Assembly: GCA_041394145.1 (NCBI GenBank)
Contig: JAWKIW010000002.1
Coordinates: forward strand, 379,252 to 443,251
DNA: 64,000 bases
Source: Acidimicrobiales bacterium
GTDB lineage: Bacteria; Actinomycetota; Acidimicrobiia; Acidimicrobiales; Acidimicrobilacustridaceae
Direction: 5' to 3'
Position numbers and translations under genes: made by a program. The notes under the pieces are model-generated. The model worked only from the letters and a program-made list of their open reading frames with translations, was not told where the DNA came from and did not search any database. Positions 1,467 through 23,086 of the stretch are shown piece after piece. Numbering within the stretch: position 1 is the first letter of the stretch; the number at the start of each line of letters is the position of its first letter.

Positions 1467-2699
1467 ATGTCCGACGTGTCGTTCCAGCTGAACGAGGACC
1501 AGCTCACCCTGCAGAAGTGGGTCCACGACTTCGGCGAAGAGGTCATCCGCCCGGTCGCGGCCGAGTGGGACGAGAAGGAGGAGTTCCCCTGGCCGGTGGT
1601 CGAGGAGGCGGCCAAGGTCGGCCTCTACGGCATGGACTTCATGGCTCAGATCATGATGAACGACCCGACCGGGCTCTCGATGCCGGTCGCCACCGAGGAG
1701 CTGTTCTGGGCCGACGCCGGCATCGGCCTGGCGATCATGGGCTCGGGCCTCGCCGCCGCCGGCATCCTCGGCAACGGCACCCCCGAGCAGATCATGGAGT
1801 GGGTCCCGCAGTGCTACGGCACCCCCGACGACGTGAAGCTCGGGGCGTTCTGCGTGTCCGAGCCCGACGCCGGCTCCGACGTGTCCTCGCTGCGCACCAA
1901 GGCCGTCTACGACGAGGCCAAGGACGAGTGGGTCCTCAACGGCACCAAGGCGTGGATCACCAACGGCGGCATCGCCGACGTCCACGTGGTGGTCGCGGCC
2001 GTCGACCCCGAGCTGAAGGGCCGCGGCCAGGCCAGCTTCGTGGTCCCGGCCAACACGCCCGGCCTGTCGCAGGGCCAGAAGTACTCCAAGCTCGGCATCC
2101 GGGCGTCGCACACCGCCGAGGTCGTGCTCGACGACGTGCGGGTGCCCGGCAGCTGCCTGCTCGGCGGCAAGGAGAAGCTCGACGAGAAGCTGGCCCGTGC
2201 CCGTGAGGCGCTGAACAACCCGGGCAAGGTGTCGAGCGGCAAGCAGCCGGCCATGGCCACCTTCGAGGCCACCCGCCCCGCCGTGGGCGCCCAGGCCATC
2301 GGCGTCGCCCGCGCCGCCTACGAGTACGCCCTGCAGTACGCCACCGAGCGCGTCGCCTTCGGCAAGCCGATCGTGATGCACCAGGGCGTGGGCTTCATGC
2401 TCGCCGACATGGCCACCGAGATCGACGCCGCCCGCCTGCTGGTGTGGCGGGCCGCGTGGATGTCGCGCAACAGCCAGTACAAGAACGCCGAGGGCTCGAT
2501 GTCCAAGCTCAAGGCCGGCCGCGTGGCCGTGTGGGTCACCGAGCGGGCCATCCAGATCCTGGGTGGCTACGGCTACGTCAAGGAGTACCCGGTCGAGCGC
2601 TGGCACCGCGACTCGAAGATCTACGACATCTTCGAGGGCACCGAGCAGATCCAGCAGCTGGTGATCGCCCGGGCCATCTCCGGCCTGCGCGTCGAGTAG
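1467..2699 (+). CDS. acyl-CoA dehydrogenase (FAD-dependent)
   Basis: 410-aa ORF with ACAD hallmarks: N-terminal helical domain, central beta domain, and the C-terminal YDIFEGTEQIQQLVIARAISG motif. The last 79 bp lie inside the attL direct repeat. Confidence 0.9.
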   Translation: MSDVSFQLNEDQLTLQKWVHDFGEEVIRPVAAEWDEKEEFPWPVVEEAAKVGLYGMDFMAQIMMNDPTGLSMPVATEELFWADAGIGLAIMGSGLAAAGILGNGTPEQIMEWVPQCYGTPDDVKLGAFCVSEPDAGSDVSSLRTKAVYDEAKDEWVLNGTKAWITNGGIADVHVVVAAVDPELKGRGQASFVVPANTPGLSQGQKYSKLGIRASHTAEVVLDDVRVPGSCLLGGKEKLDEKLARAREALNNPGKVSSGKQPAMATFEATRPAVGAQAIGVARAAYEYALQYATERVAFGKPIVMHQGVGFMLADMATEIDAARLLVWRAAWMSRNSQYKNAEGSMSKLKAGRVAVWVTERAIQILGGYGYVKEYPVERWHRDSKIYDIFEGTEQIQQLVIARAISGLRVE

Positions 2700-2774
2700 C
2701 TCTGACCTGCGCTTTCTTCTGTCAGAGGCCCGCTCACCCGAGCGGGCCTCTGTCGTTGTCGAACCCGGGATCGG
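2621..2774. repeat. attL: 154-bp direct repeat (copy 1) = ACAD 3' end + terminator hairpin
   Basis: Aligned by eye to 34905-35058 with 7 mismatches in 154. Contains two perfect 39-bp blocks, ctacgacatcttcgagggcaccgagcagatccagcagct and gtgatcgcccgggccatctccggcctgcgcgtcgagtag. Confidence 0.8.
2724..2753 (+). terminator. stem-loop (13-bp perfect stem, 4-nt loop) downstream of ACAD; part of att repeat
   Basis: cagaggcccgctc-accc-gagcgggcctctg. A second copy at 35008-35037 has loop accg. No T-tract, which is common in high-GC actinobacteria. Confidence 0.6.
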
Positions 2775-2778
2775 CGTC

Positions 2779-2799
2779 CATCCCTACTCCCATCCCTAC
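2779..2799. promoter_or_regulatory. tandem CATCCCTAC arm-type repeats adjacent to attL (putative integrase arm-binding sites / int promoter region)
   Basis: catccctac at 2779-2787 and 2791-2799, immediately inside the element and 22 bp upstream of the int ATG. A near-identical pair occurs at 34779-34798 next to attR. Confidence 0.5.
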
Positions 2800-2821
2800 T
2801 TTTCACGTAGGGTCTTCAGCC

Positions 2822-4330
2822 ATGGCAACGATCCGGCAGCGCAAGCGCGGTGTCTGGGAGGTCCGGGTGTTCGCCGGGCGCGACGCCCAGGGCAAGCCCG
2901 TCCAGGTCTCCCGTACGGTGCGCGGCGGCAAGAAGGATGCCGAGCGGGTGGCGAGCGAGCTCGAGCTCAAGCCGAGCCGGCCCGACGCCCGCCGGACCGT
3001 CGCCGAGCTCCTCGACGAGTGGCGCGCGCTCAAGGAGGCCAGCTGGGCCCCCTACACGCGCCGAGACCAGGAGAGCCGGTCGCGATCGATCGCCGCCGAT
3101 CGGATCGGGAAGGTCCCCGTCGCCCGGCTGCAGGTCACCGACGTCGATGCCTGGATCGTCCGCCTCCGCAAGGCCGGGGTCGGCGAGGGATCGATCCGCA
3201 ACCAGTTCCAGTCGCTGCGGTCGGCACTGGCCCAGGCGGTCCGTTGGGGGTGGATCGCACAGAACCCGGCCGCGCTGGCGAGCTATGAGCGAGCGAAGCG
3301 GACCTCGCGCGATGTGATGTCCGCCGAGGACGTCCAGGCCGTGCTCGAGGCCGCCGAGCAGGTCAACGAGATGGCGCCGGTCGCGATCCGACTCGCGGCG
3401 ATCACCGGTGCCCGCCGCGCCGAGCTCGCGGCGCTGCGGTGGACCGACCTCGACGGCTCCGTGCTCCGGGTCGACAGCGCCATCACGGTGGTCCGGGAAG
3501 GCTCGGGTGACGATCGGCGGACCGTCCTGCGTGACGATCCGACCAAGACCGCCGACCGTCGACGGGTCGCGCTCGACCCGTCGACCGTGGCCATGCTCGA
3601 AGTGCTGCGGGCCAGGCGTGAGCCCTACACACCGTGGATGTTCAGCGACACGGAGAAGGCTCCCCGCCCCGACCGGATCGGGTACTGGTGGCAGCGTTGC
3701 CGCGAGCTCGCCGGCATCGACGTCGAGTGGCGCCTGCACGACCTCCGCCACTGGTCGGCGACGTTCGCGCTCAGCGAGGGCTACGACGCCGCCACGGTCG
3801 CACATCGGCTTGGGCACTCGGACCCATCGACGACGCTGCGCGCCTACGCCCACGCCAGGGCGCAACGAGACGCCGACCTGGCGTCGAGCCTCGCCGATGC
3901 CTTGGAGATCCCCCCGAACCCGGGTAGCGCCCGCCACGGCGGCGAGGGCCTGTGGCCGGCCGGCGGGACCGATCCCGGGACCGACTGCGGGACCTCGTCC
4001 GACATCCGTTGGTCCGCCCGCGCCGACCGAGTGCCCTCCGGGTCTTGGAGCATGGCGACGCCCGAAAGGCCCGTTGACCTGGGAACGGGACCTTGCTCGG
4101 GACCGAGTACGGGAGTCCCGCCGAGGTCCCGTTGTCGACGCTGCCTGGTCCGCTCCGACGGCCGTCGGTTGAAGGAGATGCCCCGTTTCGGGACCGGAAG
4201 CGTGTCAGCTGCCACCTCACGGCCACGTGGCACGATCTCGAACCGGCGTTCGGCCCGTTGGCGAGACGGTGATCTGGGACACCTCGGCGGTGTGTTCGGA
4301 GACGGATTGCCGCGACCGGGCGGGCGGTAG
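2822..4330 (+). CDS. int: tyrosine integrase (phage-type, N-terminal AP2-like arm-binding domain); catalytic core ends ~3900, ORF reads on to 4330
   Basis: Starts MATIRQRKRGVWEVRVFAGRDAQGKP. The R...HDLRHWSATFALSEGYDAATVAHRLGHSDPSTTLRAYAH motif contains the catalytic Tyr. The C-terminal ~130 aa are a low-complexity GT[DG]-rich extension. Confidence 0.85.
   Translation: MATIRQRKRGVWEVRVFAGRDAQGKPVQVSRTVRGGKKDAERVASELELKPSRPDARRTVAELLDEWRALKEASWAPYTRRDQESRSRSIAADRIGKVPVARLQVTDVDAWIVRLRKAGVGEGSIRNQFQSLRSALAQAVRWGWIAQNPAALASYERAKRTSRDVMSAEDVQAVLEAAEQVNEMAPVAIRLAAITGARRAELAALRWTDLDGSVLRVDSAITVVREGSGDDRRTVLRDDPTKTADRRRVALDPSTVAMLEVLRARREPYTPWMFSDTEKAPRPDRIGYWWQRCRELAGIDVEWRLHDLRHWSATFALSEGYDAATVAHRLGHSDPSTTLRAYAHARAQRDADLASSLADALEIPPNPGSARHGGEGLWPAGGTDPGTDCGTSSDIRWSARADRVPSGSWSMATPERPVDLGTGPCSGPSTGVPPRSRCRRCLVRSDGRRLKEMPRFGTGSVSAATSRPRGTISNRRSARWRDGDLGHLGGVFGDGLPRPGGR
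3964..4207. repeat. cluster of >=7 CGGGACC/GGTCCCG heptamers in the integrase 3' extension
   Basis: cgggacc is seen at 3964, 3976, 3988, 4086, 4099 and 4199, with the inverted form ggtcccg at 4126. Confidence 0.35.
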
Positions 4331-4504
4331 CCTCCGTCGAAGTGCTACGGCAAGGTTGTCGTCTGGGACGCGGGTTCTGGGACGGTCCCGAGACCGAGGG
4401 CAGGGGAACAAACGCCGTGACGAGTCCGACGACCGCCTCGACCCGATGATTGCGAACGTTCTGGCCCGCCGCTGGCCGCCGCCTACGTCGACGGTGATCC
4501 GGGC

Positions 4505-4909
4505 ATGAAGCGGATCCGCTTCTTGACTGTGATTGTCGTGGTGCTGGTCGCTGGCTGTTCGGAACCGTTGTCGTCGTCGACGGTGACAGCCACGCCGACC
4601 AGTAGCACGGTGTCGTCGCCCCCGAGTACGCCGCCGGGGATGACAGTCCTGTCTGATGGCTGGCGTCCGGCCTACCGGGCACACATGGCCGCACCGCTGA
4701 CGTCGGAGAGAGCCGAGCAGACAGGGCGCTCGATCACCGATGCCGGCATGCGCGAAGGCTTCCGGCTGGGGGCCGATGTGGACTATGCGAACGGCTGGTT
4801 GGTGGTCTTGGTGCCCACTGATGTGCCGCCTGACCCGGAGCGGCTACCCGAGCTCGAAGCACTCATCGCGGCGGCGCCGGGTGTCACGGGGGTCGAACGG
4901 CTCCCGTAG
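4505..4909 (+). CDS. lipoprotein (hypothetical)
   Basis: Signal peptide MKRIRFLTVIVVVLVAGCS with lipobox L-V-A-G-C, followed by a Ser/Thr/Pro linker. Confidence 0.65.
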   Translation: MKRIRFLTVIVVVLVAGCSEPLSSSTVTATPTSSTVSSPPSTPPGMTVLSDGWRPAYRAHMAAPLTSERAEQTGRSITDAGMREGFRLGADVDYANGWLVVLVPTDVPPDPERLPELEALIAAAPGVTGVERLP

Positions 4910-5062
4910 GGGTCTGGTCGGCTACCGCTGCGCCCGCCACGATCAGCCCCGGGCATCGACGCGAGGGCAGCATGCGGCGAGTAGTCGCCCTCGGCAGGTT
5001 GACGCGCCACCTTCTCAGGATCCGGCGACGCGGGGGAACCGGCAGCGAGGATCTGATACCGA

Positions 5063-5137
5063 GAAGCGCGGTGCAGGGGGCGGAGCCGGCGATCGGCCCG
5101 TTCGCTGGCCGCGGTTATGCCCGCGTGATCTGGGGCG
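5063..5137. repeat. ~75-bp imperfect direct repeat, copy 1 (intergenic, upstream of 5288 ORF)
   Basis: gaagcgcggtgc ... cccgttc ... ttatgcccgcgtgatctggggcg. Compare 6346-6416. Confidence 0.5.
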
Positions 5138-5287
5138 CGGTGTTTGGGCGAGGGGGCAGGCGATGCTGATAGGAGGTACTCGTCGCTGCGGCAGGGGCGG
5201 GTCGGCGCGTTGCCCGTGGCTTCCTTCGTTCCGCCACCCGTCGTCTGGGACACTTGTTCGCGACCGACAGCTCGTTGACCGTCGCCA

Positions 5288-5779
5288 TTGGCGCGCGTCG
5301 TTGGTCGGAGAGGCGGGGTGTTGGTAGCTCAGCTCGAAACTGGTCAGTGGGCGTTGCTTGCCTTCGGAGCGGTCGCCGCGGTCGCGTTCATCGGGTGGCT
5401 GATCATCCGAACGGCGCGCGGGTCGTGGTTGGGTGTGGTGCAGGATCCGCCTGTCGCCAGGCCCGGTGGTTGGCAACCGACGGCCGTCTACGACGTGGCG
5501 GCCAAAGTGAACGGCGTGGTCGTGCGTCGCCCAGGGTCTGCGCGTCTGGGGATCTCTGCTGATGGCGTCGAGTTGACCAGCGACTCGTTCAACGGCCTGT
5601 GGGTGCCGCGCGTCGAGGTTGCCTGTGTTCGGCTGCGGCCAGCCGTCCCGCCCGTACCCGGCTACCGCACCGCTCGGTTCCTGACGGCTTCTGGTCGCCT
5701 CGATCGAGTCTCGATCACCGCTGCGGTCAGTGCCTTCGACGAGCTGAGGTCGTTGGGTTGGGTCGTCGAGTCGCGGTAG
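5288..5779 (+). CDS. hypothetical membrane-anchored protein (start uncertain)
   Basis: 163-aa ORF with one TM helix (ALLAFGAVAAVAFIGWLII). Coding-like composition. Confidence 0.4.
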   Translation: MARVVGRRGGVLVAQLETGQWALLAFGAVAAVAFIGWLIIRTARGSWLGVVQDPPVARPGGWQPTAVYDVAAKVNGVVVRRPGSARLGISADGVELTSDSFNGLWVPRVEVACVRLRPAVPPVPGYRTARFLTASGRLDRVSITAAVSAFDELRSLGWVVESR

Positions 5780-6345
5780 GCCCCATGGTCCCCGTCGGCA
5801 GGACGCCGTGGCGTTCGAGCGGCTACGGGGACTCGCACTCGCGGCGCTGGCGCGTCGTCGAGCGTTCGCGGTGCGTCGTAGGGCTGCCGACATGCCAGCG
5901 ACCGGGGGCGAAGACGATCGTCGGCCCGTCGTGCCGCCTCGTCGTCCTCCCGCTGGGGTGCTGTCGACCACAGACCTGGCAACGGTGCACGGCCGACTGT
6001 GAGCAAGGTCGTCGAGGATGTTCACGTCAGCGACCTCGCTGACGAACTCGCCTGTGTCGGGTTCGGCCGGTCGTGATCGGACTTCCGTGTACCCGTGGCA
6101 CCTGGTACCGGTACGTGAGCTACTGCTCCGTCGTGTTCTCGATCCCCGGATCCGTCGGATTCGGGGCAGACAACCCGGATGCCCTCCTCTACCGGGGCAC
6201 CGAGCCTACACGCCCGACGCATCGTGCGACGGGCTCATGGGCGCGACAAGAACCTCATCGCCGTTGGCCCCCGACTGGTATTTCGGGTTCGCGCTGCACT
6301 GCTGAGGCACCGGGGCAACCGGCATCGGACGCGCGAACGGCCGCG

Positions 6346-6416
6346 CGAAGCGCGGTGCGGCGGAACCGGCGAACTGCCCGTTCTCGGTGCGTGCTTATGC
6401 CCGCGGATCTGGGGCG
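6346..6416. repeat. ~75-bp imperfect direct repeat, copy 2 (upstream of large cargo gene)
   Basis: gaagcgcggtgc ... cccgttc ... ttatgcccgcggatctggggcg. Confidence 0.5.
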
Positions 6417-6777
6417 GGCGCGCGTCGAATCGGGTCGGCCCGACCTACCCGGGAGAGGGAGATCGCTCTGTCGTGTCGGTAGGGTGGAGGTTGGGTGTGT
6501 TCGGTGGGTTCGGGATCGACGGGGTCTCGTGCGGACTGGCCCGAGAAAGAAACGAGGAGAGGCGGGTGGTGGTGGCGACCACGTCTGGGTCGATCGGGGC
6601 CGGGGGGCCGTGCGGCGGCCGCGGTGGGCGCCTTGGTCACGGTTCGAACGGTGTGGGTGTCTTGCCGGCGGGACCCCCGGCTCGACGGGCTGCCTCGGAC
6701 GGTGTGGCGGTGGGCTTGTCGGGTGGTGTGACGGGTCGGTGGCGGGGCGGGCGGGTCCTCGTGGCGGGGGTGGTTTC

Positions 6778-9117
6778 GTGATCCCCGAGGCCGGTGTGCC
6801 GCCACCGTTCCGCCAACGGCCCCGCCCCCAGGATCTGCTTCCGGATTGCTCGACCCAAGACCCGACGGCGCTGCTGGCGTTCTTGGAGGGTCTCGGGCTG
6901 GTCCGCTGCGACGCCGATGCCTGCGGACACCGGGCCGAGACCCTCGAGGCCTACGACGTCAAGAACGGCGTGCCGGTCTACCTGTTTCGTTGCCATCGTT
7001 GCTTCGACGGGCACCTCGACGGCGATGGTGTGCCCCGTCGCTTGTACCACGAGGGAACGCACGCCAGGTTCGACGAGGACGCCTACATGTGGCGCTACGA
7101 CCAGGTCGACCGTCGCTACGGGATGGACGGTTGGGTCTGGCGCTATGAGCGGGGCTGGCACCGCGACCACGAGTGGACGGCCCCGCCGGTCGACGACACC
7201 GACGACGCGGTTGTCACGCTCAGCCTCGATGCTGCGGTGGGCCGGCTCGAACGCTGCGCGGCCCGCGTCAGAGGATGGGCGAGCGCGTATGACCTGGTGC
7301 AGGAGGTCGTCGAGGTCGCCGGCCGCATCGACTTCGAGGAGGCCGGGGTCGGCGCCGTCGAGGTGCTCGCCGGGTTCTTCGAGCGGGCTCAGGAGGCGGT
7401 CGATGCCGAGGGGCTGTTCGACGATCGGGCTCGGATGCTGGGGGTGTGGCAGCGCGAGCGACCCGCGCAGGTGCCCGACGAGGTTGAGGCCGCCTGGATG
7501 CGCTATCGGGCTCGGCGGTGGGACGAGCTCGTCGGCGCCACCGACGACCTCGGCGCTTGGCTGTTCAACTATCTGTCGGCCAACAGCGGGTGGCGGCCGC
7601 CGCGCACGGTGGACCCGGTGGGCCTCCTCAACCAGCTGCGTGGCGCCGATGACGTCCTAGTGGAGAAGGGGTGGGGGGTCATCGACGAGGACTCCGGCAT
7701 GGGGCCGAGCCTGACGTCGTTCGTTCGTCGGCTGCGGGGCGTCTCGACTCGGCCCGGGACCGAGCCGGCCTTCGCGAACCTGCAGGTCTGTGTGGCGTCC
7801 GCGCTGCGCCACGTCGGTGACGTGTCCGACGTCGATGTGCTCGGCATCGTCGAGGCGTGGGGCGACGATCGAGTGGCAGCCGACCGGCTCGCCGTCGAGC
7901 ATCCGACTCCGGCGATCGTCGCGGCGCTGGTGTGCCAGCGACAAGGCGACGTGTGCGGACCGATCCACCTTGGCGAGGTCGCAGCCCGGGCCGCCCGCGA
8001 GCCGTTGCCCGAGGTGTTGTTCGTCGAGCTCGTCGACGCCTGGGCCGAGGCGCGCAATCCGGCGATTGCCACGGCCTTGGGGTCGAACCCGGTGTGCCCC
8101 CCCGCAGCGCAGCGCCGCCTCGCTGTCCACGACAGGGTGGAGGTGGCGATCGGGGTGGCGTCCAACCCGAACCTGGACGCCGTAGCCGCCCGGATCGTGG
8201 CCGACCGGCCTGTCGGATCTGACTTCCGCGAGACGCAAGCTGCCCTGGTGGTGGCCGCCAACCCAGTCTGCCCACCGGACGTCGCCGAGCGGGCGCGAGC
8301 CAACGCGCGGGCCGCGCTCGACGCGGATGCCGACCTGGGCAAGGAACATGCCCCTCGTTGTCGGGAGCCGGCACCCGGGTGGTTCGACCCGCGCGTCCAA
8401 CGCTGTGGCCCCAACTTCCTACTGGACTGGGCATGGGGGTACGCCGCCTATGGCGTCGACGACCCGGAGGTCGTCGTCGCCCTGCACTCCGCCAATTGCC
8501 ACGCCACCCGCGTGGCGCTGCCCCTGTATGCCAATGGCGCCTGCACGCTGGATGAGGCCGTGGCGCTCGCTCGTCTCGATCCGAGCGGCGACAGCTTGCG
8601 GTCTTGGATGCTCGCCGGCGCCGATACCGTCCACGACGTCTTGCGACTTGTCGAGGCTCGAGTCAGCGTGACCCAGGCCGAGCGGGTCGCCACGACGGCC
8701 GGACCGGTCGACGTCGACGAGCTGATCGCCCACCGTGAAGATCTCGACTCCTGGCTGGCCGGGCTTCCCCCTCGTGACACGGACGCCGTGATCGCCCAGA
8801 TCATCAGCCCCTGCTGGTGGTCCCTGGTCGGCGTTCCCGACGGGGCGTGGTCCGGACGTCTCGAGATCATCGCCTCCGCCCCTGAGGCGGTGACCCGGGG
8901 TGCGTCCGGGCAGCGCATCGCCGAAGCGTTCATCGACCGCACTGAAGCCGAGCTGGCCTGCTACCCGGAGTGCAGGACCGTCAGAGACCTTCTCGGGTCC
9001 TTCCGTCGTGCGGTCGTCGCCGCTCGCGCCGCCGTCGACGCCGCCGCCGGTGCCGAGGTCGAAGACACCGTCGTCGCCCCTGCGCTGGCCACCATCCGCG
9101 AGATCCGTCCGTGGTGA
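6778..9117 (+). CDS. large hypothetical protein: N-terminal Cys/His-rich (zinc-ribbon-like) region + C-terminal leucine-rich-repeat-variant (LRV)-like NP...P repeats
   Basis: CDADACGHRAETL...LFRCHRCFDGHLDG at the N-terminus. Repeated ...NPAIATALGSNPVCPPAAQRRLAVHDRVEVAIGVASNPNLDAVAARIVAD...ANPVCPPDVAERA. GTG 6778 was chosen because the upstream part of the 6073 ORF is Gly/Arg junk. Confidence 0.55.
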   Translation: MIPEAGVPPPFRQRPRPQDLLPDCSTQDPTALLAFLEGLGLVRCDADACGHRAETLEAYDVKNGVPVYLFRCHRCFDGHLDGDGVPRRLYHEGTHARFDEDAYMWRYDQVDRRYGMDGWVWRYERGWHRDHEWTAPPVDDTDDAVVTLSLDAAVGRLERCAARVRGWASAYDLVQEVVEVAGRIDFEEAGVGAVEVLAGFFERAQEAVDAEGLFDDRARMLGVWQRERPAQVPDEVEAAWMRYRARRWDELVGATDDLGAWLFNYLSANSGWRPPRTVDPVGLLNQLRGADDVLVEKGWGVIDEDSGMGPSLTSFVRRLRGVSTRPGTEPAFANLQVCVASALRHVGDVSDVDVLGIVEAWGDDRVAADRLAVEHPTPAIVAALVCQRQGDVCGPIHLGEVAARAAREPLPEVLFVELVDAWAEARNPAIATALGSNPVCPPAAQRRLAVHDRVEVAIGVASNPNLDAVAARIVADRPVGSDFRETQAALVVAANPVCPPDVAERARANARAALDADADLGKEHAPRCREPAPGWFDPRVQRCGPNFLLDWAWGYAAYGVDDPEVVVALHSANCHATRVALPLYANGACTLDEAVALARLDPSGDSLRSWMLAGADTVHDVLRLVEARVSVTQAERVATTAGPVDVDELIAHREDLDSWLAGLPPRDTDAVIAQIISPCWWSLVGVPDGAWSGRLEIIASAPEAVTRGASGQRIAEAFIDRTEAELACYPECRTVRDLLGSFRRAVVAARAAVDAAAGAEVEDTVVAPALATIREIRPW

Positions 9118-9224
9118 GTGTGGCACGCCATCAGCAGCGATGGTCTCGCCGGTGAAGGTCGCCGTGGAGAGGAGCGACCACCAACCGCCGTCGAACGTCG
9201 GGCCGCCGCGGGGACGCCCCTAGG

Positions 9225-10919
9225 GTGGCTGCGGTGGTCGGCGGGCGAGCAGTACGGGGTCGGTGTCTCGACGACGCCGCCGAAGACGGCCTGTGGGCCG
9301 AGGCCGGATTCACGGCCGCCGAGGCCCGCCGCTGGACCCGGCTGTACCGCGAATGCACCGACGAGCCTTTCCGGCGCCGGGATCCGGTTGCCAGCGTCGT
9401 CGAGGCCGCCGCTGTCACGGTGAGCGGGCTGCTGCCGACGGGGTGGACCGGGGCGGAGGTCCTCGACGTCGCCGAGCGGCACCAGGTCGTGGGAGAGGTC
9501 CTGCCCGCTGTGGTGCAGATGCTGCCAGACCCGTCACCGGCGGGGTTCGCCGCCGTCGAGGCGGCGGCCGACATCACGGGGATGCCGCTGCTCCACCGGC
9601 TGTGGACGGCGGCTCGGCACCCCGGTCGCGTCGACCACGACGAGCTGGTGGAGGCCATGGCGTGGGCGGCGAGGGCGGTGGCGCTGGGCACCACCCAGGT
9701 GTTGGAGCTGTCGGGGCTGCGGCCGGCCACCTGGGCCGGGTTCCTGGCGACGGCGTCGCCGCCCCCGACGCTGCTCGAGCACCGGCTGTGGCACTACGGG
9801 TGGCGGTGCATGAACGAGATGACCGCCCCCTACCCGTTCACCGGTGCCCTCGGCGCACGGGTCGCGTCGGTCGTCGTCGACCGCAGGCCCTACCGCTCCA
9901 ACGATCAGCGGCGGACGTGGATCTCGCCCGCCGCCGGTGAGGTCTGGTCGGTCGCCCGGCAGGCGCACCTCGACCACGGCGCTCACGTACCGGCGACGCT
10001 CGCTCCCGGCTGGTTGTGGAGCCGCTGTGACCCCCTCCTGTTGGCGCGGCGACCGGTGCCCGACGCCACGCAGATCGAGCGGCTGACCCGGGTGCAGCTG
10101 CGCGACGCGCTCGACGACCTCGGGCTGCCGGTCCCCGAGTGGTCCGACGAGCTGCTCACCGCGGCGGTGGCGTGGGGTACCAGGTACGCCGCCGATCTCG
10201 TCGCCGCCCAGGAGCTGACCTGGGATGTCCCCGGATCACCGCACACGTCCTTGCTCGTGGTCGAGCCAGCTGACTTCGACGAAGGTGAGCTGCTCGCCCG
10301 CGGGTTCCGTCCGTTCGTGTCCGGCTCGAGGACCGACGACGTACTCGGTGTGCTGCGTACCGCCGGGGTACAAGCGGCTCGAACGCGAGGTGACGAGCCG
10401 GTGGGGTGGGCACGAGCTGGTCGCGACGGACGCCGGACGTGGCGCTACGTCCTCGACGTAGCCGCAGACATGGTCGTAGCGCCCGACGACGATCTGGTCG
10501 CCCGATGGCGGCGCGTGGTGGGGACCGTCGCCGCCGAACTCGACAGCCGCCGCGAGCAGCCCCTACGGCCCTGGCCGCTCCAAGGGACCTCGAGGCGCTG
10601 TCGGCAGCCACCGCGCCCGTGGCGGGCATCGACACCGGCTCGACCGACCGGCACGGTCGAACCGCTTAAACGTCTCCCAGCGACGACGTGTGGCGTCGCC
10701 GCGGTCAACGTCTCGGTCTCGGTGGCGCCGACATCGACGGTGAACGACCTGCACCTCCGCACCCTGGTGCGTGTCGTACCGATGGAGAGCCCGAACCGCC
10801 TCGGTCACGACGAACTGGTGTTTGGTGCCCAGACCGGACGCCGGTTGGCCTCCGACAGACGAGGCGGCCCAGGCTCGACAAGCCCTCGACGAGGTCTTTA
10901 CCGCCCGTCGACGCCCTAA
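9225..10919 (+). CDS. hypothetical protein (family duplicated downstream); true 3' end probably ~10.7 kb
   Basis: Contains LEHRLWHYGWRC, EWSDELLTAAVAWGTRYAADLVAAQ and GWARAGRDGRRTWRYVLDVAADMVVAP blocks. These recur in shifted frames at 10.85-12.25 kb. Confidence 0.5.
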   Translation: MAAVVGGRAVRGRCLDDAAEDGLWAEAGFTAAEARRWTRLYRECTDEPFRRRDPVASVVEAAAVTVSGLLPTGWTGAEVLDVAERHQVVGEVLPAVVQMLPDPSPAGFAAVEAAADITGMPLLHRLWTAARHPGRVDHDELVEAMAWAARAVALGTTQVLELSGLRPATWAGFLATASPPPTLLEHRLWHYGWRCMNEMTAPYPFTGALGARVASVVVDRRPYRSNDQRRTWISPAAGEVWSVARQAHLDHGAHVPATLAPGWLWSRCDPLLLARRPVPDATQIERLTRVQLRDALDDLGLPVPEWSDELLTAAVAWGTRYAADLVAAQELTWDVPGSPHTSLLVVEPADFDEGELLARGFRPFVSGSRTDDVLGVLRTAGVQAARTRGDEPVGWARAGRDGRRTWRYVLDVAADMVVAPDDDLVARWRRVVGTVAAELDSRREQPLRPWPLQGTSRRCRQPPRPWRASTPARPTGTVEPLKRLPATTCGVAAVNVSVSVAPTSTVNDLHLRTLVRVVPMESPNRLGHDELVFGAQTGRRLASDRRGGPGSTSPRRGLYRPSTP

Positions 10920-12252
10920 CCGGGTCCGGGTGGAGCCAAGCCACGTTGGCCGACGCAGTGGAGCGCACGAACCTGTGGGTGACCGAGCTTCGGTGCCCCT
11001 CGTCAGGCGCTCGGCGGCCTGTCACCCGACCGCGCCACGGTTACCAGAGCCGTCGGGCTCAGCGGTCCGCCGTGGCCGCCGCCTTGGCCAATCTTCGCTG
11101 CGCGCCCGACACCCTGCAGCACCGACGACAAGGTGGCGGCCGCGAGGTGGTGGCCTGCCGCCGACGCTCTCGGCTTGCGCGCCTCGTGCTGGAGCTGGCC
11201 GGTGTGGTCGATCCCACCTGGCAGGCCCATGAGAGCGTCGCACCGCAGCCTCCGACCGCTGTGGATCGGGCACTGTGGCACCACGGCTGGCGATGTGCTG
11301 GCTCACTGGCCGTGGGCACCTCCTACGAGGACATCAGCCAGCATCGCCAGGGGGCTCTTTGTGTTCTCCCTTACCCAGGAATCGCCCGTGGCGACAGGTG
11401 AGCACTCCGGGCCGGTGTGGCTGCACCAGTCGCCGGACAGGTATGGCCCGCGGTAATCGGCGCGCCTCATCGGCCCCGACGGCGGACCGCGTCGACGCAC
11501 CGCCTCCGAGGCTGAGCGTGGCGCTCGTAGACATCGCCCGGGACCCGCCGGCCGGCTGCACCGACCTGGAGCAGGGTGCGGCGGTGAAGCCGTAATCTCG
11601 CTGCTGGTCGCCCTCAGACCTCGGCCTGCCCGTCGACGAGTGGTCCGACGAGATCGTGCGTTTCGCCGCCCGCTACGAAAGCAGGGCCGAAGCCGCCGAC
11701 CTCGTCGCCGTGCAGGTCGACCACCTCGGGCTGGCCGCCGACCTCATCGTCGTCGACATGGCCGCTAGGCGAGGAGATCGACCTCGCGATCCGGGGTACC
11801 GGCCCGTCGTGGCCGGCGCCGACACCGATCCGGTGCTCGCCCTGCTCGACGACCACGGCCACGACACCGCCACCACCCGTCCTGACCACCCTGTCGGCTG
11901 GGCGCGTCCTCGCGACTGGGTCTGGCGCTATGTCCTCGACGTCGCTGGTCAGGCCGTGCCCACCGCCACCGAATCGGTGCCCGACCGCTGGCTGCTCGAC
12001 ATCGCCGCCGCTCACCCGGCCGGCGAGCCGACCACAGCCCACTCCACTGACGTCCTCCGCCAGCTCGACGGGATGCGTGCCGGCGGCCTTCGACTTCGAG
12101 ACCGGTGTTGCGTCCCGGAGCGGAAGGGCGGAGGCAAGGCCTCTCGGCCGCCGGTGTGCGCTCCACCCAGGCCAACACCAGAGGCCCGCGACCTTGCCAG
12201 CAGGGCGACGCTGATGTCCTCTCCAGTCGAGCGAACCCCTGGGATTCGATGA
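10850..12252 (+). pseudogene. frameshifted paralog of the 9225 gene
   Basis: ORF 10688..11401 carries DRALWHHGWRC. ORF 11656..12252 carries EWSDEIVRFAARYESRAEAADLVAVQ...GWARPRDWVWRYVLDVAGQAVP. The pieces share order and spacing with the 9225 protein but lie in different frames. Confidence 0.5.
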
Positions 12253-12558
12253 AAGGCCCCAGACCATGGAACCCGTCGGAACCGAGGACCGGGTCGCCGG
12301 AGGAGAAGCCCTCCTGGAAGCCGACGGCGGGCCGGCGAGTCGGAGAAGGATCGAACCCCCACACCGGTCGAGACGATGTCGTCGAACGTCATCGGCGCAC
12401 TGTCCCTTAACGCAGCCGCCAACGTCGCCCGCAGGGTGGGTGTGCTCACCTGCATTCCCGGCCCCACTTGAGCAGGTTTGTGCTCGTCTGATTTGGCCCC
12501 ACCCTGACGGTGTCGGGGTCCACCTGGGAGCGGCCGGCTGCTGTGAACCGTGGGGTTC

Positions 12559-14091
12559 ATGGCGAAGAGGTCGAAGGTGGAGTTGTACAGGCAGATCCGC
12601 AAGACCCGCGAGCGTGAGCAGCTCGGGATCCGGGCGTTGGCGCGCCGGTTCGGGGTTCATCGCCGCGCGATGTGCGCCAGGCGTTGGCGTCGGCGGTGCC
12701 GCCGCCGCGCAAGCCGTGCAGCGGGCGTCGCCGGTGCTGGATCGGTGGAAGCCGATCATCGATGGCTGGTTGGAGGCCGACCGGGCGGTGCCGAAGAAGC
12801 AGCGGCACACGGCCCGGCGGGTGTGGCAGCGGCTGGTCGCCGAGCACGGCGCCGAGATCGGCGAGTCGACCGGTGCGCCGCTTACGTGGCGGCGTGGAAG
12901 CCGGCAGCAAGGCGCTGGTGGAGGTGGCGGTGCCCCAGACCCATCCGCTGGGCGCGGAGGCCGAGGTGGACTTCGGGGCGGTCAGCTTCTATCTCGACGG
13001 GGTGCTGTGTGAGGGCCACATGTTCGTGATGCGCTTGTCGGCGTCGGCCAAGGGGTTCCATCAGGTGTATCCGAACGAGGCCCAGCAGGCGTTCCTCGAT
13101 GGCCATGTCCGGGCCTTCGCCCATTTCAGTGGGGTGCCGGGCCGGGTGCGCTATGACAACTTGAAGCCGGCGGTGGAGCGGGTGCTGCGGGGCCGGGACC
13201 GCGCCGAGTCCGAACGGTTCAGTGGCGCTCGCATTCGCCACTACAGGTTCCGACTCGATTGTTCTTCTGTCAGCCCGGCCCCGACGGCGCCCGCCCAGAA
13301 GGTGGCGTGGAAGGAGAGGTGGGCCGGTTCCGTCGCCGTCACCTGGTCCCGATGCCCAACGTCGCCTCGTTCGCCGAGCTCAACGACCTGATCGCGGCCG
13401 CCGACGCCGCCGATGACGCCCGCTGGGTGGCGGGTCGACGCCTCAGCGTCGGTGACCACTTCGCCCTGGAGGCCCCACGCTGGGGTGCCTGCCCGACGAG
13501 GCGTTCGACCCGGCGTTGATGCTGCGGCCCCGGGTGGACACGAAGTCCCGGGTGTGTGTGCGTCAGTGCTTCTACTCAGTGCCGGTGCGCTACGTCCGGG
13601 CGACGCATCGATGTGCGTCTGGGCGCCGACACGATCGAGGCGCTCGACGGGCCCCGGGTGGTGGCCACCCACCCCGGTTGTTGGCCAAAGGCACCGAGAG
13701 CTTGGTGCTGGACCACTACCTGGAGGTGCTACGGCTCAAGCCCGGGGCGCTGCCAGGCGCCACCGCGCTGGCTCGAGCCCGGGCGTCGGGCGCGTTCAGC
13801 GCCGACCACGAAGACGTATTGGTCCGCGGCCCGCCGACGCCTCAACGGCGCCGGCGCACCCAGGCCCTGATCGAGGTCCTGCTGGCCGCAGGCCCTGCCC
13901 GCCGACGCCGTGCGCGCCGGGATCCGAGCGGCGCTACGGATCCCGGTTCAGTCGACCCCGCCATCGTCGTCGTCGGTGCCCGACGAGCCCTCGAGGACCA
14001 CGACGCACGGTCGTGGCGATCGGTAATCGCCCGCTACGACCGCCCACCGCCGACGATCGCCCACTACGACCAGCTCCTGGAGGCCCGATGA
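12559..14091 (+). pseudogene. istA: IS21 transposase IstA (HTH + DDE), multiple frameshifts
   Basis: MAKRSKVELYRQIRKTREREQLGIRALARRFGVHRR is the N-terminal HTH. GHMFVMRLSASAKGFHQVYPNEAQQAFLDGHVRAFAHFSGVPGRVRYDNLKPAV is the catalytic core. C-terminal pieces (VCVRQCFYSVPVRY..., HYLEVLRLKPGALPGATAL) lie in other frames. Confidence 0.7.
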
Positions 14092-14862
14092 ACACCGACA
14101 CCGCCGCCGGTGCCACCGTCGACGCCGCAGCCCGCGAGCTGCGCCTACCGGCGGTGCGCGACCACACGCCACGACAGCCGCCGAAGCCAAACGGGCCCGC
14201 TCCACCCACCTGGGGTTCCTCGCCGACGTGCTCACCGTCGAGGTCGACGACCGAGCCGAACGACGACAGGCCCGGCGCATCCACGAGGCGCACTTCCCGC
14301 GCCTCAAACGCCTCGCCGACTTCCGACCTCGACGCCGCCCCCACCGTGGCCCCCACCGACCTCCCCGCCACCCTCGCCGCCGGCACCTTCCTCGACGTCG
14401 GCGAACCCGTCGTGTTGCTCGGCGACTCCGGCACCGGCAAGACCCACCTGCTCATCGGCACCGGCCTCGCCGCCTGCGAAGCCGGACGACGAGTCCACCG
14501 CCACCTGCGCACAACTCGTCAACGAACTCGTCGAAGCCGCCGACGAACGCCGCCTCGCCCGCCTCGTCGCCCGCTACGGCGCCGCCTCGACCTGCTGTGC
14601 GTCGACGAGCTCGGCTACGTCCAACTCGACAGCCGCGGCGCCGAGCTGTTGTTCCAAGTGCTCACCGAACGAGACGAACGAGCATCCGTGGCCGTCGCGT
14701 CCAACCTCCCCGTTCAGCGAATGGGGCCAGATCATCACCGACGCCCGCCTCGTCGCCGCCGTCATCGACCGGCTCACCTTCAACGCCCACATCATCGAAA
14801 CCGGCACCCGCTCTACCGTCTGCGCGCCAGCAGCCGCACCCGTCACCAACAAGACCGCCTGA
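14088..14862 (+). pseudogene. istB: IS21 helper ATPase IstB, frameshifted
   Basis: Starts MNTDTAAGATVDAAARELRLPAVRDH. Walker A VLLGDSGTGKTHLLIG. LDLLCVDELGYVQLD and DRLTFNAHIIETG lie in shifted frames. Confidence 0.65.
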
Positions 14863-15320
14863 ACGCCCCGAACATCCGCACCCGTCACCCACCCGACCCG
14901 ACCCGAGAGGCTCTACGGGCCACACAGCAGCCAGTTCCTCGGCTCGACGCCGACCGAAGGGGTGGGGCCAAATCAGACGAGCACGGTGGGGCCAATCCAG
15001 GTTGACATTCCCGGCAGAGCGCCGAAGGGGCCGATAGGCCCGGCTTCATAACCATCGGGGACACCGTCGAGGGTCGGAAATCGACACGGCGGCTCCGGCT
15101 GCCGATACTGCCTCTCGGTGGGGCGGCTCGTCGGCCCGGGAGGCTGTCATGGATGCCGGTACCGCCATGTCCCTGCGCTCGCGCTCAGTGAGCCTTTGCA
15201 CTGCTGATGATCCAGCGGAGGTAGCTGCCGCCGGGTTCCTGGCCCGCTACGGGACGGACCCTCAGTCGTATCATTCATGACCTGCGGGTCTTCCAGTGGG
15301 CGGCTGACGCTCGCATCGAC

Positions 15321-16124
15321 GTGCTCGCGGCCACTCGAGCCCACATCGGCTGTACCGCACCCACCTCGAAGCGCCGCGGCCTGGCCGGCACCACCATCGG
15401 CCGGCGTCTCTCGACAGTGTGTGGCTTCTACCGGTTCGCCCACATCGACGGCTACATCAATGCCAACCCCGCCCAGTACGTCCGCCGGGTACAGCGTCGA
15501 ACCCCGAGGGTCGAGGCTGGACCTGTCGAGCTGGCCCAGCTGCTGTTCGAAGCCGAACGCACCGACCACCACCACGCGGCCCTGGCCCTGTTGTTGGGAC
15601 TCAACGGGCTTCGCGTCAGCGAAGCCTGCGGCGCCGACCTCGCCGACCTCGGCGCTGACCACGGTCACCGCACCTGCGCATCATCGGCAAGGGCAACAAG
15701 CCCGCCGTTGTCCCGCTCGTACCTCGCACCGCCCGCACCATCGATCTGGCGCGAGGCGAACGCACCGACGGGCCGCTGCTCCTACGGAGCGACGGCGACC
15801 GCCTCGACCGTCGCACCGCCTACCGCTGGATCCGCTCCATGGCCCGCCGCGCCGGGCTCCGGCTCGGTCCATCCCCACATGCTGCGCCGCCGCGTTCATC
15901 ATGGCCGCCCTCGACAGCGGCGTCCCGCTAACGACGTTGCAGATCGCCGCCCGCCGCCGATCCACGCACCACCACCGTACGACCGGCGCCGCGCCAACTT
16001 CGACCATCACGCCGCCTACGTCGTCGCGGCCTTCGTCACGGCGGATAGCACCGCTCTCGACGGTGTCCCACTCGTTATGAGCCGGGCCTATCGGCCCATC
16101 CGAACTAGCAGTGTCAGAACGTAG
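15321..16124 (+). pseudogene. tyrosine recombinase remnant (frameshifted, N-terminally truncated)
   Basis: CGFYRFAHIDGYINANPAQYV...LLLGLNGLRVSEACGADLADL, then in another frame HRTLRIIGKGNKPAVVPLVPRTARTIDLARGERTDGPLLLRSDGDRLDRRTAYRWIRSMARRAG. Confidence 0.65.
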
Positions 16125-19640: not shown

Positions 19641-20607
19641 GGCCGCGCTTCGCAGCCACATCCGGCAACCGAGTACCGGCACCACCCGCGACGACATCGC
19701 CGAAGCCTACCGATCAGGGTCTGCCGCGGCAGCCGTCGACGCTGCCAGGGCCCGAGGGCGTCCCAGACCATCCGGCATGACCCTACCCCGCGAAAGTGGG
19801 CAGATCGTCGGCAGGGCTCACCCGGATGGAGTGTCCGCGCTTGCTGCCTGGCGGCAGATCGGGCCCGGCTCTGGCGCCAGCTGGCGGTGCGTTCCGATCG
19901 CGCGCGCCACGCCAGGCACCGGATGCCAACATGTCCGCGGAACAAACCTGACCGTCCGGTCGGAGCACCAGAGCGGACCGTCGCGGCGGCTGGGGATGTC
20001 GGCCACCAGGATCGTCCTTCCGATCATCTGGTGGACCGCAAGCGTCATCGTGTGGACCAGTCGGATCAGTCGTGCACCGCAGAGATGGGTACACGCCCTC
20101 GGAGGCACGGAGCTTTCCTGACCACCCCACCGGACCCTTCCTCTACCGACGTGGCGTCCCGTCGACGAAGCTCGGCCCGGCATGGTTGATCGCCTTCGAC
20201 GAGTCAGACCTTCGTGATCATCCCACGCGGCCTGCTGACAACGGCCAGGCATTTCTACCGCAGCGAAGAACGGCTGGTCGTGCGAGTCGATCGCGCCCGA
20301 CCGTCGATCTGGCGGTCGCGGGCAAGTGGCCCAGATCACCAAGGGCCCACTCGGAAGACATCGACGCGCGGTTGGCGGCAACCGGCTGGACCGACGAACC
20401 GCTAGCGAGCACTCCCACCACCCCCATGCTTCACCTCGTCCCCTGGCCGCTCCCCATCCAGACCTGACCACGTCCACCGAGCCGACCCAGACCACTGGAC
20501 CCGATCAGCAGATCTGCCCGCACCACCGAGGTATCCAGATCGCCTAATACACGGATGATCCATCTGGCATCCCGTGTGATCTCACCGGCGGCGGGGAGCA
20601 TGCGGGG

Positions 20608-21651
20608 ATGAACCAGTTCCCGTGTTTGATCCGTTCGTCGTCGCCCGGTGGGGAGGCCCGCTTCGCCCTGGGTGATCCGCTCGTGGACGCCTACCTCGAG
20701 TTCGTCGCGGGCCGGGCCCGACCGAACACGTTGCGGGCGGTCGCCCATGACTTGAAGACGTTCTTCACGGTGATCGACAAGGCGCCCGCGGCGGTGGTCA
20801 CCGCCGATGTGTTCGACTTCCTCGCTGACCAACGTGGTGACCGCACCGTGATCCGTCTGTCTGATCGCGAGTCGGGGTTGTCGGCTCGCACGATCGCCCG
20901 GCGGTTGTCGTCGGTGTCGGGCTTGTACGCGTATCTGATCGCTCGGGGCGACACCGGCGTGGACACCAACCCGGTGCCGCGTGGCCTGTCGACCCGGCGG
21001 CGAGGCGGACGCACCCAGATCGTGCCCCTGGTGCGGGTGCCGCGCACCCTGCCCAAGATCTTGTCGCCCGCCGAGGTGAACGCACTGGTGGGTGCGCTGC
21101 GCACCCACCGGGACCGGGCGATGGTGTTCGCGATGGTGCTGGGAGGACTGCGCCGCTGCGAGGTCCTCGGTCTGCGCCTGGCCGACATCCGCGTGCCGGA
21201 CCGGTCGGTGTTCATCGCCGAAGGCAAGGGCGGCCACCAACGCATCGTGCCGATCAGCAACCCGTTCTTCGCGGCGGTCGGCCACTACCTGCGCTCGGAA
21301 CGACCCGCGGTGGACACCGACCGCGTCTTCGTCACCTTGAAGGGCCCCACCCGGGGGCACCCGATGACCCCCGACGGCATCGACAAGATCCTCCAGGCTG
21401 CCCGCCGACGCGGCGGGCTGGAACGGGCGACGTGTCACCAGCTGCGCCACACCTGCCTGACCCGCCTGCGCGAAGCCGGCATGGCCCTCGAAGCGGTCCA
21501 GGCCCAGGCCGGGCACGTCTCGATCGAGTCGACCCGGATCTACCTGCACCTCACCAACGACTGGCTCGCCAACGAATACCGGCGGGCCAGCGAACGCATC
21601 GACGCCGACCACACCGCCGAGCTCCTCGAGGCTCAGGAGATCAACCGATGA
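20608..21651 (+). CDS. tyrosine recombinase (XerC/D-like integrase), intact
   Basis: 347 aa. Catalytic-domain motifs present: LRRCEVLGLRLADI, HQLRHTCLTRLREAGMALEAVQAQAGHVSIESTRIYLH (the Y is the nucleophile). Confidence 0.85.
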   Translation: MNQFPCLIRSSSPGGEARFALGDPLVDAYLEFVAGRARPNTLRAVAHDLKTFFTVIDKAPAAVVTADVFDFLADQRGDRTVIRLSDRESGLSARTIARRLSSVSGLYAYLIARGDTGVDTNPVPRGLSTRRRGGRTQIVPLVRVPRTLPKILSPAEVNALVGALRTHRDRAMVFAMVLGGLRRCEVLGLRLADIRVPDRSVFIAEGKGGHQRIVPISNPFFAAVGHYLRSERPAVDTDRVFVTLKGPTRGHPMTPDGIDKILQAARRRGGLERATCHQLRHTCLTRLREAGMALEAVQAQAGHVSIESTRIYLHLTNDWLANEYRRASERIDADHTAELLEAQEINR

Positions 21652-22930: not shown

Positions 22931-23086
22931 CACCGATACTGCGTATAACGCCGGCTCGGCTCCAACCTGCCGCCGGCGAGCAGTCCGGCCCCTGTTGGAC
23001 GCGACTCGGCCGTTGACCAGCGGTGTTGTGCCCGAGGGGCCATCATCCCTCAGGTGGGCACCCACTGAGTCGCGTACATTCTGCCT

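What the first reader, a model, noticed from the sequence alone, without database searches (positions are those of the whole stretch)
6778..12252. Cargo block of large uncharacterised proteins: a Cys/His plus LRV-repeat protein and a duplicated hypothetical gene
The 780-aa protein at 6778-9117 combines a Cys/His cluster (C..C.H...LFRCHRCFDGH) with repeated ...NP..CPP...L...D..V..A...NP... units resembling leucine-rich-repeat-variant motifs.

The next gene (9225-~10700) has a frameshifted paralog immediately downstream (10.85-12.25 kb) that ends at the IS21 insertion.

These proteins have no obvious housekeeping role and sit right after the integrase. That position is typical for defence, fitness or anti-defence cargo on islands.
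Basis: partly seen in the sequence, partly recalled or inferred. Interest (0 to 1): 0.55.

Follow-up and report, generated by a model that had tools for sequence, protein, structure and literature searches.

The report
Two orphan genes on integrated element
Two large genes of unknown function sit on an integrated mobile element in an uncultured Acidimicrobiales genome, and the supposed "gene plus broken copy" is one two-part gene whose second half is garbled in this assembly, so the finding is largely ordinary.

Summary
Gene A (6778-9117, 779 aa) is real. It has a CX4C...CX2C Cys/His cluster and 4-6 degenerate LRV-like repeats. Among 1.84 billion representative proteins it matches only its own near-identical copy and, marginally (E about 3e-4 to 6e-4), two true LRV proteins.

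The "duplicated gene with a frameshifted paralog" is a misreading. In a 97.9%-identical sister contig (L001) the stretch 9225-12093 is one 959-aa ORF built from two homologous modules of about 450 aa, 36% identical to each other. A 936-aa homolog at 45% identity has the same two-module layout.

In the window, module 2 carries 40 indels and 44 mismatches in 1.5 kb. This noisy stretch starts abruptly at 10585 and also breaks IS21 istA/istB. The 6.4 kb to its left differs by only 14 events. Another contig of the same MAG encodes a clean module 2. Poor consensus is the likelier cause; real decay is not excluded.

Gene B ends at its own stop about 350 bp before IS21, so IS21 does not truncate it.

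Both genes lie in a roughly 32-kb integrase/relaxase element bounded by 158-bp direct repeats. Nothing matches a defence, phage, plasmid or housekeeping family, and function stays unknown. Interest is low.

The parts
2617..2774 (.). Left copy of the 158-bp direct repeat (probable attL). It holds the last ~83 nt of the acyl-CoA dehydrogenase gene and its terminator hairpin. The right copy is at 34901-35058.
   Evidence: Self-blastn gives 94.9% identity over 158 bp; alignment; acyl-CoA dehydrogenase Pfam domains on 1347-2699.
2444..4330 (+). Tyrosine integrase ORF. The true start is probably later than 2444.
   Evidence: Pfam Phage_integrase E=9e-18 at aa 291-474 of the ORF.
6778..9117 (+). Gene A: 779 aa, acidic (pI 4.8), soluble orphan protein.
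   Evidence: ORF and GC3 periodicity; NCBI MEZ5141801.1; no real homolog among 1.84 billion representatives; no family hits; pI and hydropathy.
6907..7014 (+). Cys/His cluster of gene A (aa 44-79), CX4C-x22-CX2C with three His. Zinc-ribbon-like spacing.
   Evidence: Sequence. Enrichment is marginal (5.3% of shuffles). AF2 pLDDT is about 30 here. No Pfam zinc-finger hit.
7885..8307 (+). Degenerate LRV-like helical repeats of gene A (aa ~370-510), with NP..CPP / ..V..A.ANP.. units.
   Evidence: Marginal exhaustive-search hits (E 3e-4 and 6e-4) to P0005 and P0006, which carry Pfam LRV/LRV_2. In-register alignments. Short-helix repeats with pLDDT 75-85 in the AF2 model.
9225..10584 (+). Gene B, module 1 (aa 1-453). 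This part is intact in the window.
   Evidence: GC3 0.84. Identical to L001 apart from 4 mismatches. Aligns from aa 16 with aa 9 of P0003, which supports the 9225 start over NCBI's shorter call.
10585..12093 (+). Gene B linker plus module 2 (aa 454-959 of the intact protein). In the window it is broken by 40 indel events (36 frameshifting) and 44 mismatches, and the stop codon is lost.
   Evidence: Window-versus-L001 alignment. L001:5065-7944 is one 959-aa ORF with coding GC3 throughout. The two modules are 36% identical, E=1e-54. A clean module 2 exists on another contig of the same MAG (P0009).
12440..15012 (+). IS21-family element (istA/istB), also riddled with frameshifts in the window. 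Its ends are approximate.
   Evidence: IstB_IS21 Pfam hit. Intact 503-aa IstA with Mu-transpos_C_2 in L001. 32-nt inverted repeats at 12480-12511 and 14953-14984, plus outer repeat copies.

Best explanation
The block holds two lineage-restricted accessory genes of a roughly 32-kb integrative, probably mobilizable, element. The element is inserted at the 3' end of an acyl-CoA dehydrogenase gene in an Acidimicrobiales MAG.

Gene A encodes an acidic, soluble 85-kDa protein. It has a possible N-terminal zinc ribbon, and from about aa 150 onward it is predicted to be all-helical. Part of that region is a degenerate LRV-type solenoid.

Gene B is a single gene of about 959 aa, not a gene followed by a pseudogene. 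It arose by an old internal duplication of a Trp-rich module of about 450 aa. Each module starts with a confidently predicted all-alpha domain.

In this window the second module looks frameshifted because a stretch starting at 10585 carries about 5% indels plus mismatches. That stretch runs at least to 14453 and probably to about 20.4 kb. The most likely cause is poor consensus in a strain-variable or repeat-rich part of a long-read metagenome assembly.

Shown: the gene structures, the element borders and the lack of homologs. Inferred only: both proteins look like non-enzymatic binding or scaffold proteins. The conserved positions are mostly W, G, L and P, with no catalytic or nucleotide-binding motifs, and the architecture is repeat-based. 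My low-confidence guess is that they bind a protein or nucleic-acid partner to the benefit of the element.
For: - One ORF in the sister contig. L001 is 97.9% identical to window 4163-14453 and reads 9225-12093 as a 959-aa ORF with coding GC3 0.77-0.97 throughout.
- Conserved architecture. P0003 (936 aa) aligns over 98% of that ORF at 45% identity. N-N and C-C module identities (50% and 43%) exceed N-C (33-38%), so the duplication predates the split of the two homologs.
- Noise pattern. There are 4 indels and 10 mismatches in 6422 nt left of 10585, then 80 indel events and 88 mismatches in the next 3869 nt. That is an indel:substitution ratio of about 0.9. It affects gene, spacer and IS21 alike.
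- Reading frames stay fragmentary until about 20.4 kb.
- The same MAG encodes a clean module 2 elsewhere (P0009, 1 aa different from L001).
- Long-read assemblies are known to produce such gene-fragmenting indels (PMC12007338, abstract).
- Element borders and mobility genes.
- Orphan status.
- No transmembrane segments and acidic pI.
- AF2: gene B module aa 1-170 at pLDDT 85-94, all-alpha. Gene A aa 430-520 and 560-660 at pLDDT 60-85, short-helix repeats.
Against: - No reads were available, so poor consensus cannot be told apart from a truly decayed allele. The window-specific substitutions are biased to transitions and to A/T, which real decay also produces.
- L001 itself has a 1-nt frameshift in gene A (at window 8842), so neither assembly is error-free.
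Confidence: 0.6

Rival explanations
1. The second half of gene B, and the adjacent IS21, are genuinely decayed in this strain. On this view, the window carries a real pseudogenised allele, perhaps an old copy brought in by recombination, and gene B is non-functional here.
For: Window-specific substitutions are 66% transitions and run 3:1 towards A/T, as expected for neutral decay in a high-GC genome. The disruption is uniform over gene, spacer and IS21. The MAG holds a second, clean module 2 on another contig, which could mean there are two real copies.
Against: The indel:substitution ratio is about 0.9, far above what I know of bacterial pseudogenes (own knowledge). There are zero differences in the ~2 kb of weakly or non-coding sequence at 4163-6200 and only 14 in 6.4 kb immediately to the left. 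This rules out simple orthologous neutral divergence and would require a recombination junction exactly at 10585.
Confidence: 0.25
2. Genes A and B together form a new defence or anti-defence module carried by the element.
For: The genes sit on an integrase/relaxase element downstream of the integrase and on the same strand, 108 nt apart. Both proteins are large, acidic and orphan. After excision they would lie near the relaxase end of the circular form (inference).
Against: There are no hits in PADLOC, PHROGs or Pfam. No nuclease, ATPase, NTPase, TIR or Sir2-type motifs are seen among the invariant residues. The only other gene B homolog has no gene A homolog in the 472 nt upstream. There are too few homologs for any neighbourhood statistics.
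Confidence: 0.08
3. Genes A and B serve the element's own maintenance, for example replication initiation, partition or transfer accessory functions.
Confidence: 0.07

Closest known systems
Leucine-rich repeat variant (LRV) proteins (Pfam PF01816 LRV, PF25591 LRV_2; prototype Azotobacter vinelandii LRV protein, PDB 1LRV, from my own knowledge)
   Same: Gene A aa ~370-510 carries 4-6 units of the type ..V..A.A.NP.CPP....L... These align in register with two proteins that score strongly on Pfam LRV and LRV_2. The AF2 model shows the matching pattern of short helices. Like the prototype, gene A also has a Cys cluster N-terminal to the repeats.
   Different: Gene A reaches no Pfam LRV, LRV_2 or LRV_FeS score even at E<=10. 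The repeats make up under 20% of a 779-aa protein. The Cys cluster lies 300 aa upstream of them and has zinc-ribbon spacing, not that of a 4Fe-4S domain. The remaining ~600 aa match nothing.
Lineage-specific orphan cargo genes of integrative and mobilizable elements
   Same: The genes lie between an att-flanked tyrosine integrase and a TrwC-type relaxase. They have lower GC3 than the flanking core genes (0.80-0.86 against 0.96-0.97) and no homologs.
   Different: No function can be transferred from any characterised cargo class. They are also unusually large for orphans (85 and 104 kDa).
Proteins formed by internal tandem duplication (pseudo-dimers)
   Same: Gene B consists of two homologous modules of ~450 aa joined by a Pro-rich linker. 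Both modules are kept in both known family members.
   Different: The module matches no known domain by sequence or by fold.

Membership tests
LRV repeat family (Pfam PF01816 / PF25591) | Scores on the Pfam LRV or LRV_2 model at or above the gathering threshold | tested here: not met
   No Pfam family at E<=10 for full-length gene A or for the isolated repeat segment.
LRV repeat family (Pfam PF01816 / PF25591) | Tandem units of ~24 residues with the ..V..A.A.NP..P....L.. signature, forming short alternating helices | tested here: inconclusive
   Four to six degenerate units. The exhaustive search links gene A aa 406-527 to true LRV proteins only at E 3e-4 to 6e-4. Pairwise alignments are in register. 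The AF2 model shows short helices at pLDDT 75-85.
A. vinelandii-type LRV protein (LRV_FeS + LRV) | N-terminal 4Fe-4S cluster domain directly preceding the repeats | tested here: not met
   No LRV_FeS hit. The Cys cluster is at aa 44-75, about 300 aa before the repeats.
Zinc ribbon | Two Cys knuckles (CX2-4C ... CX2C) separated by a beta-hairpin and conserved among homologs | tested here: inconclusive
   The spacing C44-x4-C49 ... C72-x2-C75 is present. Strands are predicted between the knuckles, but at pLDDT ~30. C/H density is reached by 5.3% of shuffles. There is no Pfam hit and no diverged homolog against which to test conservation.
   A single 959-aa ORF in L001 and a single 936-aa ORF in P0003, both spanning both modules.
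Known anti-phage defence systems (PADLOC-DB 2.0) | Match to any defence-system protein model | tested here: not met
   No PADLOC hit at E<=0.1 for gene A, gene B, the module 2 fragments or the upstream small ORFs.
Integrative mobile element | Site-specific recombinase next to one of two direct repeats that duplicate the target | tested here: met
   Phage_integrase domain. The 158-bp direct repeats at 2617-2774 and 34901-35058 contain the 3' end of the acyl-CoA dehydrogenase gene. A relaxase/helicase lies at 31638-34154.
IS21 family | istA transposase plus istB ATPase between terminal inverted repeats | tested here: met
   IstB_IS21 E=2e-18. L001 has an intact IstA with Mu-transpos_C_2. Inverted repeats of 32 nt, 91% complementary. 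In the window both genes are frameshifted.

The most novel reading that the evidence does not exclude
Gene A (zinc ribbon plus LRV-like solenoid) and the two-module Trp-rich gene B are a previously unseen pair of mobile-element effector proteins. They could form a new defence or anti-defence module of Acidimicrobiia integrative elements, and gene B would represent a new protein fold family.
Probability: 0.07. Interest if true: 0.55.

Novelty: new member of a known kind. Interest (0 to 1): 0.2.

Why it matters
The value here is mainly as a correction. An apparent "gene plus frameshifted paralog next to an IS" turns out to be one two-module gene lying in a low-quality (or decayed) stretch of a MAG. 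NCBI's annotation of gene B is also misleading: a 499-aa call with a late start and a false C-terminus.

The two proteins are true orphans. Gene A has no full-length relative among 1.84 billion representative proteins, and gene B has one. If their function were ever found, it would be new biology of Acidimicrobiia mobile elements. At present nothing points to a specific mechanism.

Tried and rejected
Family scans. Pfam, NCBIfam, PADLOC and PHROGs scans of gene A, gene B (window and L001 versions), P0003, domain-sized segments and the upstream small ORFs gave nothing credible. The weak DUF6280, DLW-39 and zf-HC2 hits are far below their cut-offs, and some lie in wrong-frame ORFs.

Solved structures. 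PDB sequence searches with gene A and with the gene B module profile found nothing at E<=10.

Homolog searches.
- Word-indexed searches of 5.8 billion proteins found only self-copies and one gene B homolog.
- The exhaustive search with gene A found its own copy, one spurious low-complexity eukaryotic repeat (P0004) and two LRV proteins.
- Degenerate-pattern scans of GTDB genomes, JGI metagenomes and IMG/VR, run for both proteins, confirmed no relative.
- tblastn against plasmids and phages gave no match.

Structure.
- The AF2 models are weak, with mean pLDDT 59 for the gene B module and 52 for gene A.
- afdb50 was not available.

Other checks.
- hhalign shows genes A and B are unrelated to each other.
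- Exact-protein look-ups to recover the NCBI contigs or a clean copy of 14.4-20.5 kb failed.
- The G/T-rich leader at 6440-6780 has no excess RNA structure (z=+0.53), and the window has no Rfam hit.
- Promoter and terminator scans were uninformative.

Rejected ideas.
- That the ORFs are non-coding. The GC3 periodicity and the 45%-identical full-length gene B homolog argue against it.
- That IS21 truncated gene B. Its C-terminus aligns to the end of P0003, and a natural stop lies about 350 bp before the IS.
Full report
**Setting**

The window is about 70% GC. Two proteins in the block are exact NCBI entries from a MAG named "Acidimicrobiales bacterium". These are R2726_04690 (MEZ5141801.1, 779 aa) and R2726_04695 (MEZ5141802.1, 499 aa), on a 443-kb contig.

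Core-like genes with GC3 of 0.96-0.97 (an MFS transporter and an acyl-CoA dehydrogenase) end at 2699. From there GC3 drops to about 0.75-0.86.

A 158-bp direct repeat (2617-2774 and 34901-35058, 94.9% identical) contains the last codons of the acyl-CoA dehydrogenase gene and its terminator hairpin. Between the two copies lie:
- a tyrosine integrase (2444-4330);
- the block under study;
- an IS21 element;
- further recombinases;
- a serpin and a GGDEF protein;
- a TrwC-relaxase/RecD-like helicase (31638-34154).

The block is therefore cargo of a roughly 32-kb integrative, probably mobilizable, element.

**Gene A (6778-9117)**

The ORF is real.
- It is 779 codons long, and the coding signature (GC3 0.8-0.9, GC2 about 0.5) starts at about 6780 and runs to the stop.
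- NCBI and the Logan gene caller chose the same GTG start.

The Cys/His cluster is there: C44-x4-C49-x-H51 ... C72-H73-x-C75-x3-H79. This is zinc-ribbon spacing, but three things leave it unproven.
- The C/H density is matched by 5.3% of shuffles.
- The AF2 model is unreliable in this region, with pLDDT about 30.
- No diverged homolog exists against which to test conservation.

The LRV-like units (aa ~370-510) are also there. Gene A scores on no Pfam model at E<=10, whether scanned whole or in segments.

The exhaustive phmmer search of 1.84 billion representatives returned four proteins:
- gene A's own near-identical Logan copy;
- a spurious eukaryotic low-complexity repeat;
- two proteins at E 3e-4 and 6e-4 that carry strong Pfam LRV and LRV_2 matches and align with gene A in register over the NP.CPP units.

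AF2 gives short-helix repeats at pLDDT 60-85 for aa 430-520 and 560-660. Foldseek finds only generic alpha-solenoids, with no hit at E<1e-3.

Gene A is acidic (pI 4.8) and has no hydrophobic segment. I read it as an orphan helical-repeat protein with a degenerate LRV-type segment. It resembles the LRV family but is not a demonstrable member.

**Gene B and its "paralog"**

tblastn of the 9225 ORF against the window confirms homologous stretches downstream in two other reading frames. These are 11186-11446 (32% identity, E=2e-7) and 11617-11991 (44%, E=9e-17).

A Logan contig (L001, 10.3 kb, SRR32022564) is 97.9% identical to window 4163-14453. It reads the whole interval 9225-12093 as one 959-aa ORF, with coding GC3 of 0.77-0.97 in every 300-nt block.

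A second family member, P0003 (936 aa, from another sample), aligns over 98% of that ORF at 45% identity.

Both proteins consist of two modules of about 450 aa joined by a Pro-rich linker.
- Within L001's gene B the modules are 36% identical (E=1e-54).
- N-to-N (50%) and C-to-C (43%) identities between the two proteins exceed N-to-C (33-38%), so the duplication predates their divergence.

The start at 9225 is supported, because the conservation with P0003 begins at aa 16. NCBI's 499-aa call starts 65 codons too late and ends in a false C-terminus.

**Why the second half looks broken**

Differences between the window and L001 are very unevenly spread.

| Window interval | Content | Length (nt) | Indel events | Mismatches |
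|---|---|---|---|---|
| 4163-10584 | upstream region, gene A, gene B module 1 | 6422 | 4 | 10 |
| 10585-12093 | gene B linker and module 2 | 1509 | 40 (36 frameshifting) | 44 |
| 12094-12477 | spacer | 384 | 12 | 9 |
| 12478-14453 | part of IS21 | 1976 | 28 | 35 |

- There are no differences at all in 4163-6200.
- L001 ends at window position 14453.
- L001 has an intact 503-aa IstA, while the window's istA and istB are in pieces.
- Frame-signature segmentation shows only short fragments from 10.6 to about 20.4 kb, and clean genes again from 20461.

Four points argue against ordinary orthologous decay and for poor consensus:
- the indel:substitution ratio is near 1;
- the noise starts abruptly;
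- gene, spacer and IS are hit equally;
- the neighbouring weakly coding DNA is identical between the two assemblies.

Long-read assemblies are known to produce such gene-fragmenting indels (PMC12007338, abstract).

The same MAG also encodes a clean module 2 on another contig (P0009 = MEZ5143942.1, 385 aa, one residue different from L001).

I cannot exclude a genuinely decayed allele introduced by recombination. The window-specific substitutions are rich in transitions and biased towards A/T, which fits either reading. I put artefact against real decay at about 70:25. L001 is not perfect either, since it has a 1-nt frameshift in gene A at window 8842.

**Relation to IS21**

The stop codon of gene B (L001 7942-7944) maps to window 12091-12093. 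There the window reads TCGA instead of CTGA, so the ORF runs on to 12252.

The IS21 inverted repeats are at 12480-12511 and 14953-14984, with further outer repeat copies back to about 12440 and on to about 15012.

Gene B's C-terminus aligns to within 4 residues of the end of P0003. Gene B is therefore complete, and the IS sits about 350-385 bp downstream of it. The gene does not "end at the IS21 insertion".

**What the proteins might do**

Nothing transferable was found.
- No family hits in Pfam, NCBIfam, PADLOC or PHROGs.
- No PDB sequence hit.
- No relatives in plasmids, phages, GTDB genomes, JGI metagenomes or IMG/VR.

The columns invariant across the four modules are dominated by Trp (11), Gly, Leu and Pro. 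There is no His, Cys, Ser or Lys constellation and no Walker motif.

Genes A and B are unrelated to each other. The only other gene B homolog has no gene A homolog in its 472-nt upstream flank, so linkage of the two families is not established.

My best guess, marked as inference, is that both are non-enzymatic binding or scaffold proteins that serve the element. A defence or anti-defence role (about 8%) or an element-maintenance role (about 7%) cannot be excluded, but neither has positive evidence.

**Verdict**

The "cargo" interpretation is supported. The "duplicated gene / frameshifted paralog ending at IS21" reading is wrong.

The two genes are true orphans of unknown function on an ordinary kind of mobile element. 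Part of what looked unusual is most likely an assembly-quality artefact. Interest is low (0.2).

Noticed in passing
window 10585 to ~20400: This stretch has fragmentary reading frames. Against the sister contig L001 (which covers up to 14453) it shows about 5% indels plus mismatches, while both flanks are clean. It is likely low-quality consensus or a decayed region of the MAG, so any gene call inside it is unreliable.
   Followed up: partly
window 2617-2774 and 34901-35058: 158-bp direct repeats (94.9% identical) hold the 3' end and terminator hairpin of the acyl-CoA dehydrogenase gene. They are probably the attL and attR of a ~32-kb integrative element that uses a protein-coding gene, not a tRNA, as its target. 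No tRNA is present in the window.
   Followed up: partly
window 34214-34462 and 35079-35327: A second direct repeat, 250 bp at 90% identity, straddles the right att copy. It is followed by a DUF222 gene (35084-37177). This may be a remnant of a tandem or earlier insertion.
   Followed up: no
window 20548-23720: Two or three adjacent tyrosine-recombinase genes lie on the + strand: 20608-21651 is intact, and 21432-22559 / 22247-22930 carries an integrase C-terminal domain split across two frames. The layout recalls recombinase-in-trio elements.
   Followed up: no
L001 4683 (= window 8842): The sister contig has one G fewer in a G-run. This splits gene A into 704-aa and 75-aa ORFs there, whereas the window copy is intact.
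   Followed up: yes
window 6206, 6333, 6406: Three single-base deletions relative to L001 fall within 200 nt and together restore the frame. They lie in the poorly coding region upstream of gene A, inside a 200-aa ORF (6179-6781) whose stop overlaps gene A's GTG start. That ORF has no coding GC3 signature and no family hit.
   Followed up: partly
window 9225-10919 (NCBI R2726_04695): The public annotation of gene B (499 aa) starts 65 codons too late. It also ends in about 110 residues of out-of-frame sequence created by the first indels after 10585.
   Followed up: yes
another contig of the same MAG (138,522 bp; protein MEZ5143942.1 = P0009): A clean copy of gene B module 2 (385 aa, one residue different from L001) is annotated elsewhere in the same MAG. 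This points to either a redundant strain-variant contig or a second genomic copy. The contig itself could not be retrieved.
   Followed up: partly
window 6440-6780: A G/T-rich stretch with strong positive GC skew lies directly upstream of gene A. It shows no excess RNA secondary structure (z=+0.53) and has no Rfam match.
   Followed up: yes
window 15028-15071 and 16056-16097: A 44-nt inverted repeat (88.6%) lies just right of IS21 and brackets an ORF (15277-16080) with no family hit. It may be another small mobile element.
   Followed up: no
window 43132-50463: This stretch holds a radical-SAM/SPASM protein with a SEC-C motif, a LuxR-type regulator with an AAA domain, and a sulfatase. The combination resembles a sulfatase with its anaerobic maturase. 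It lies outside the element's right att copy.
   Followed up: no
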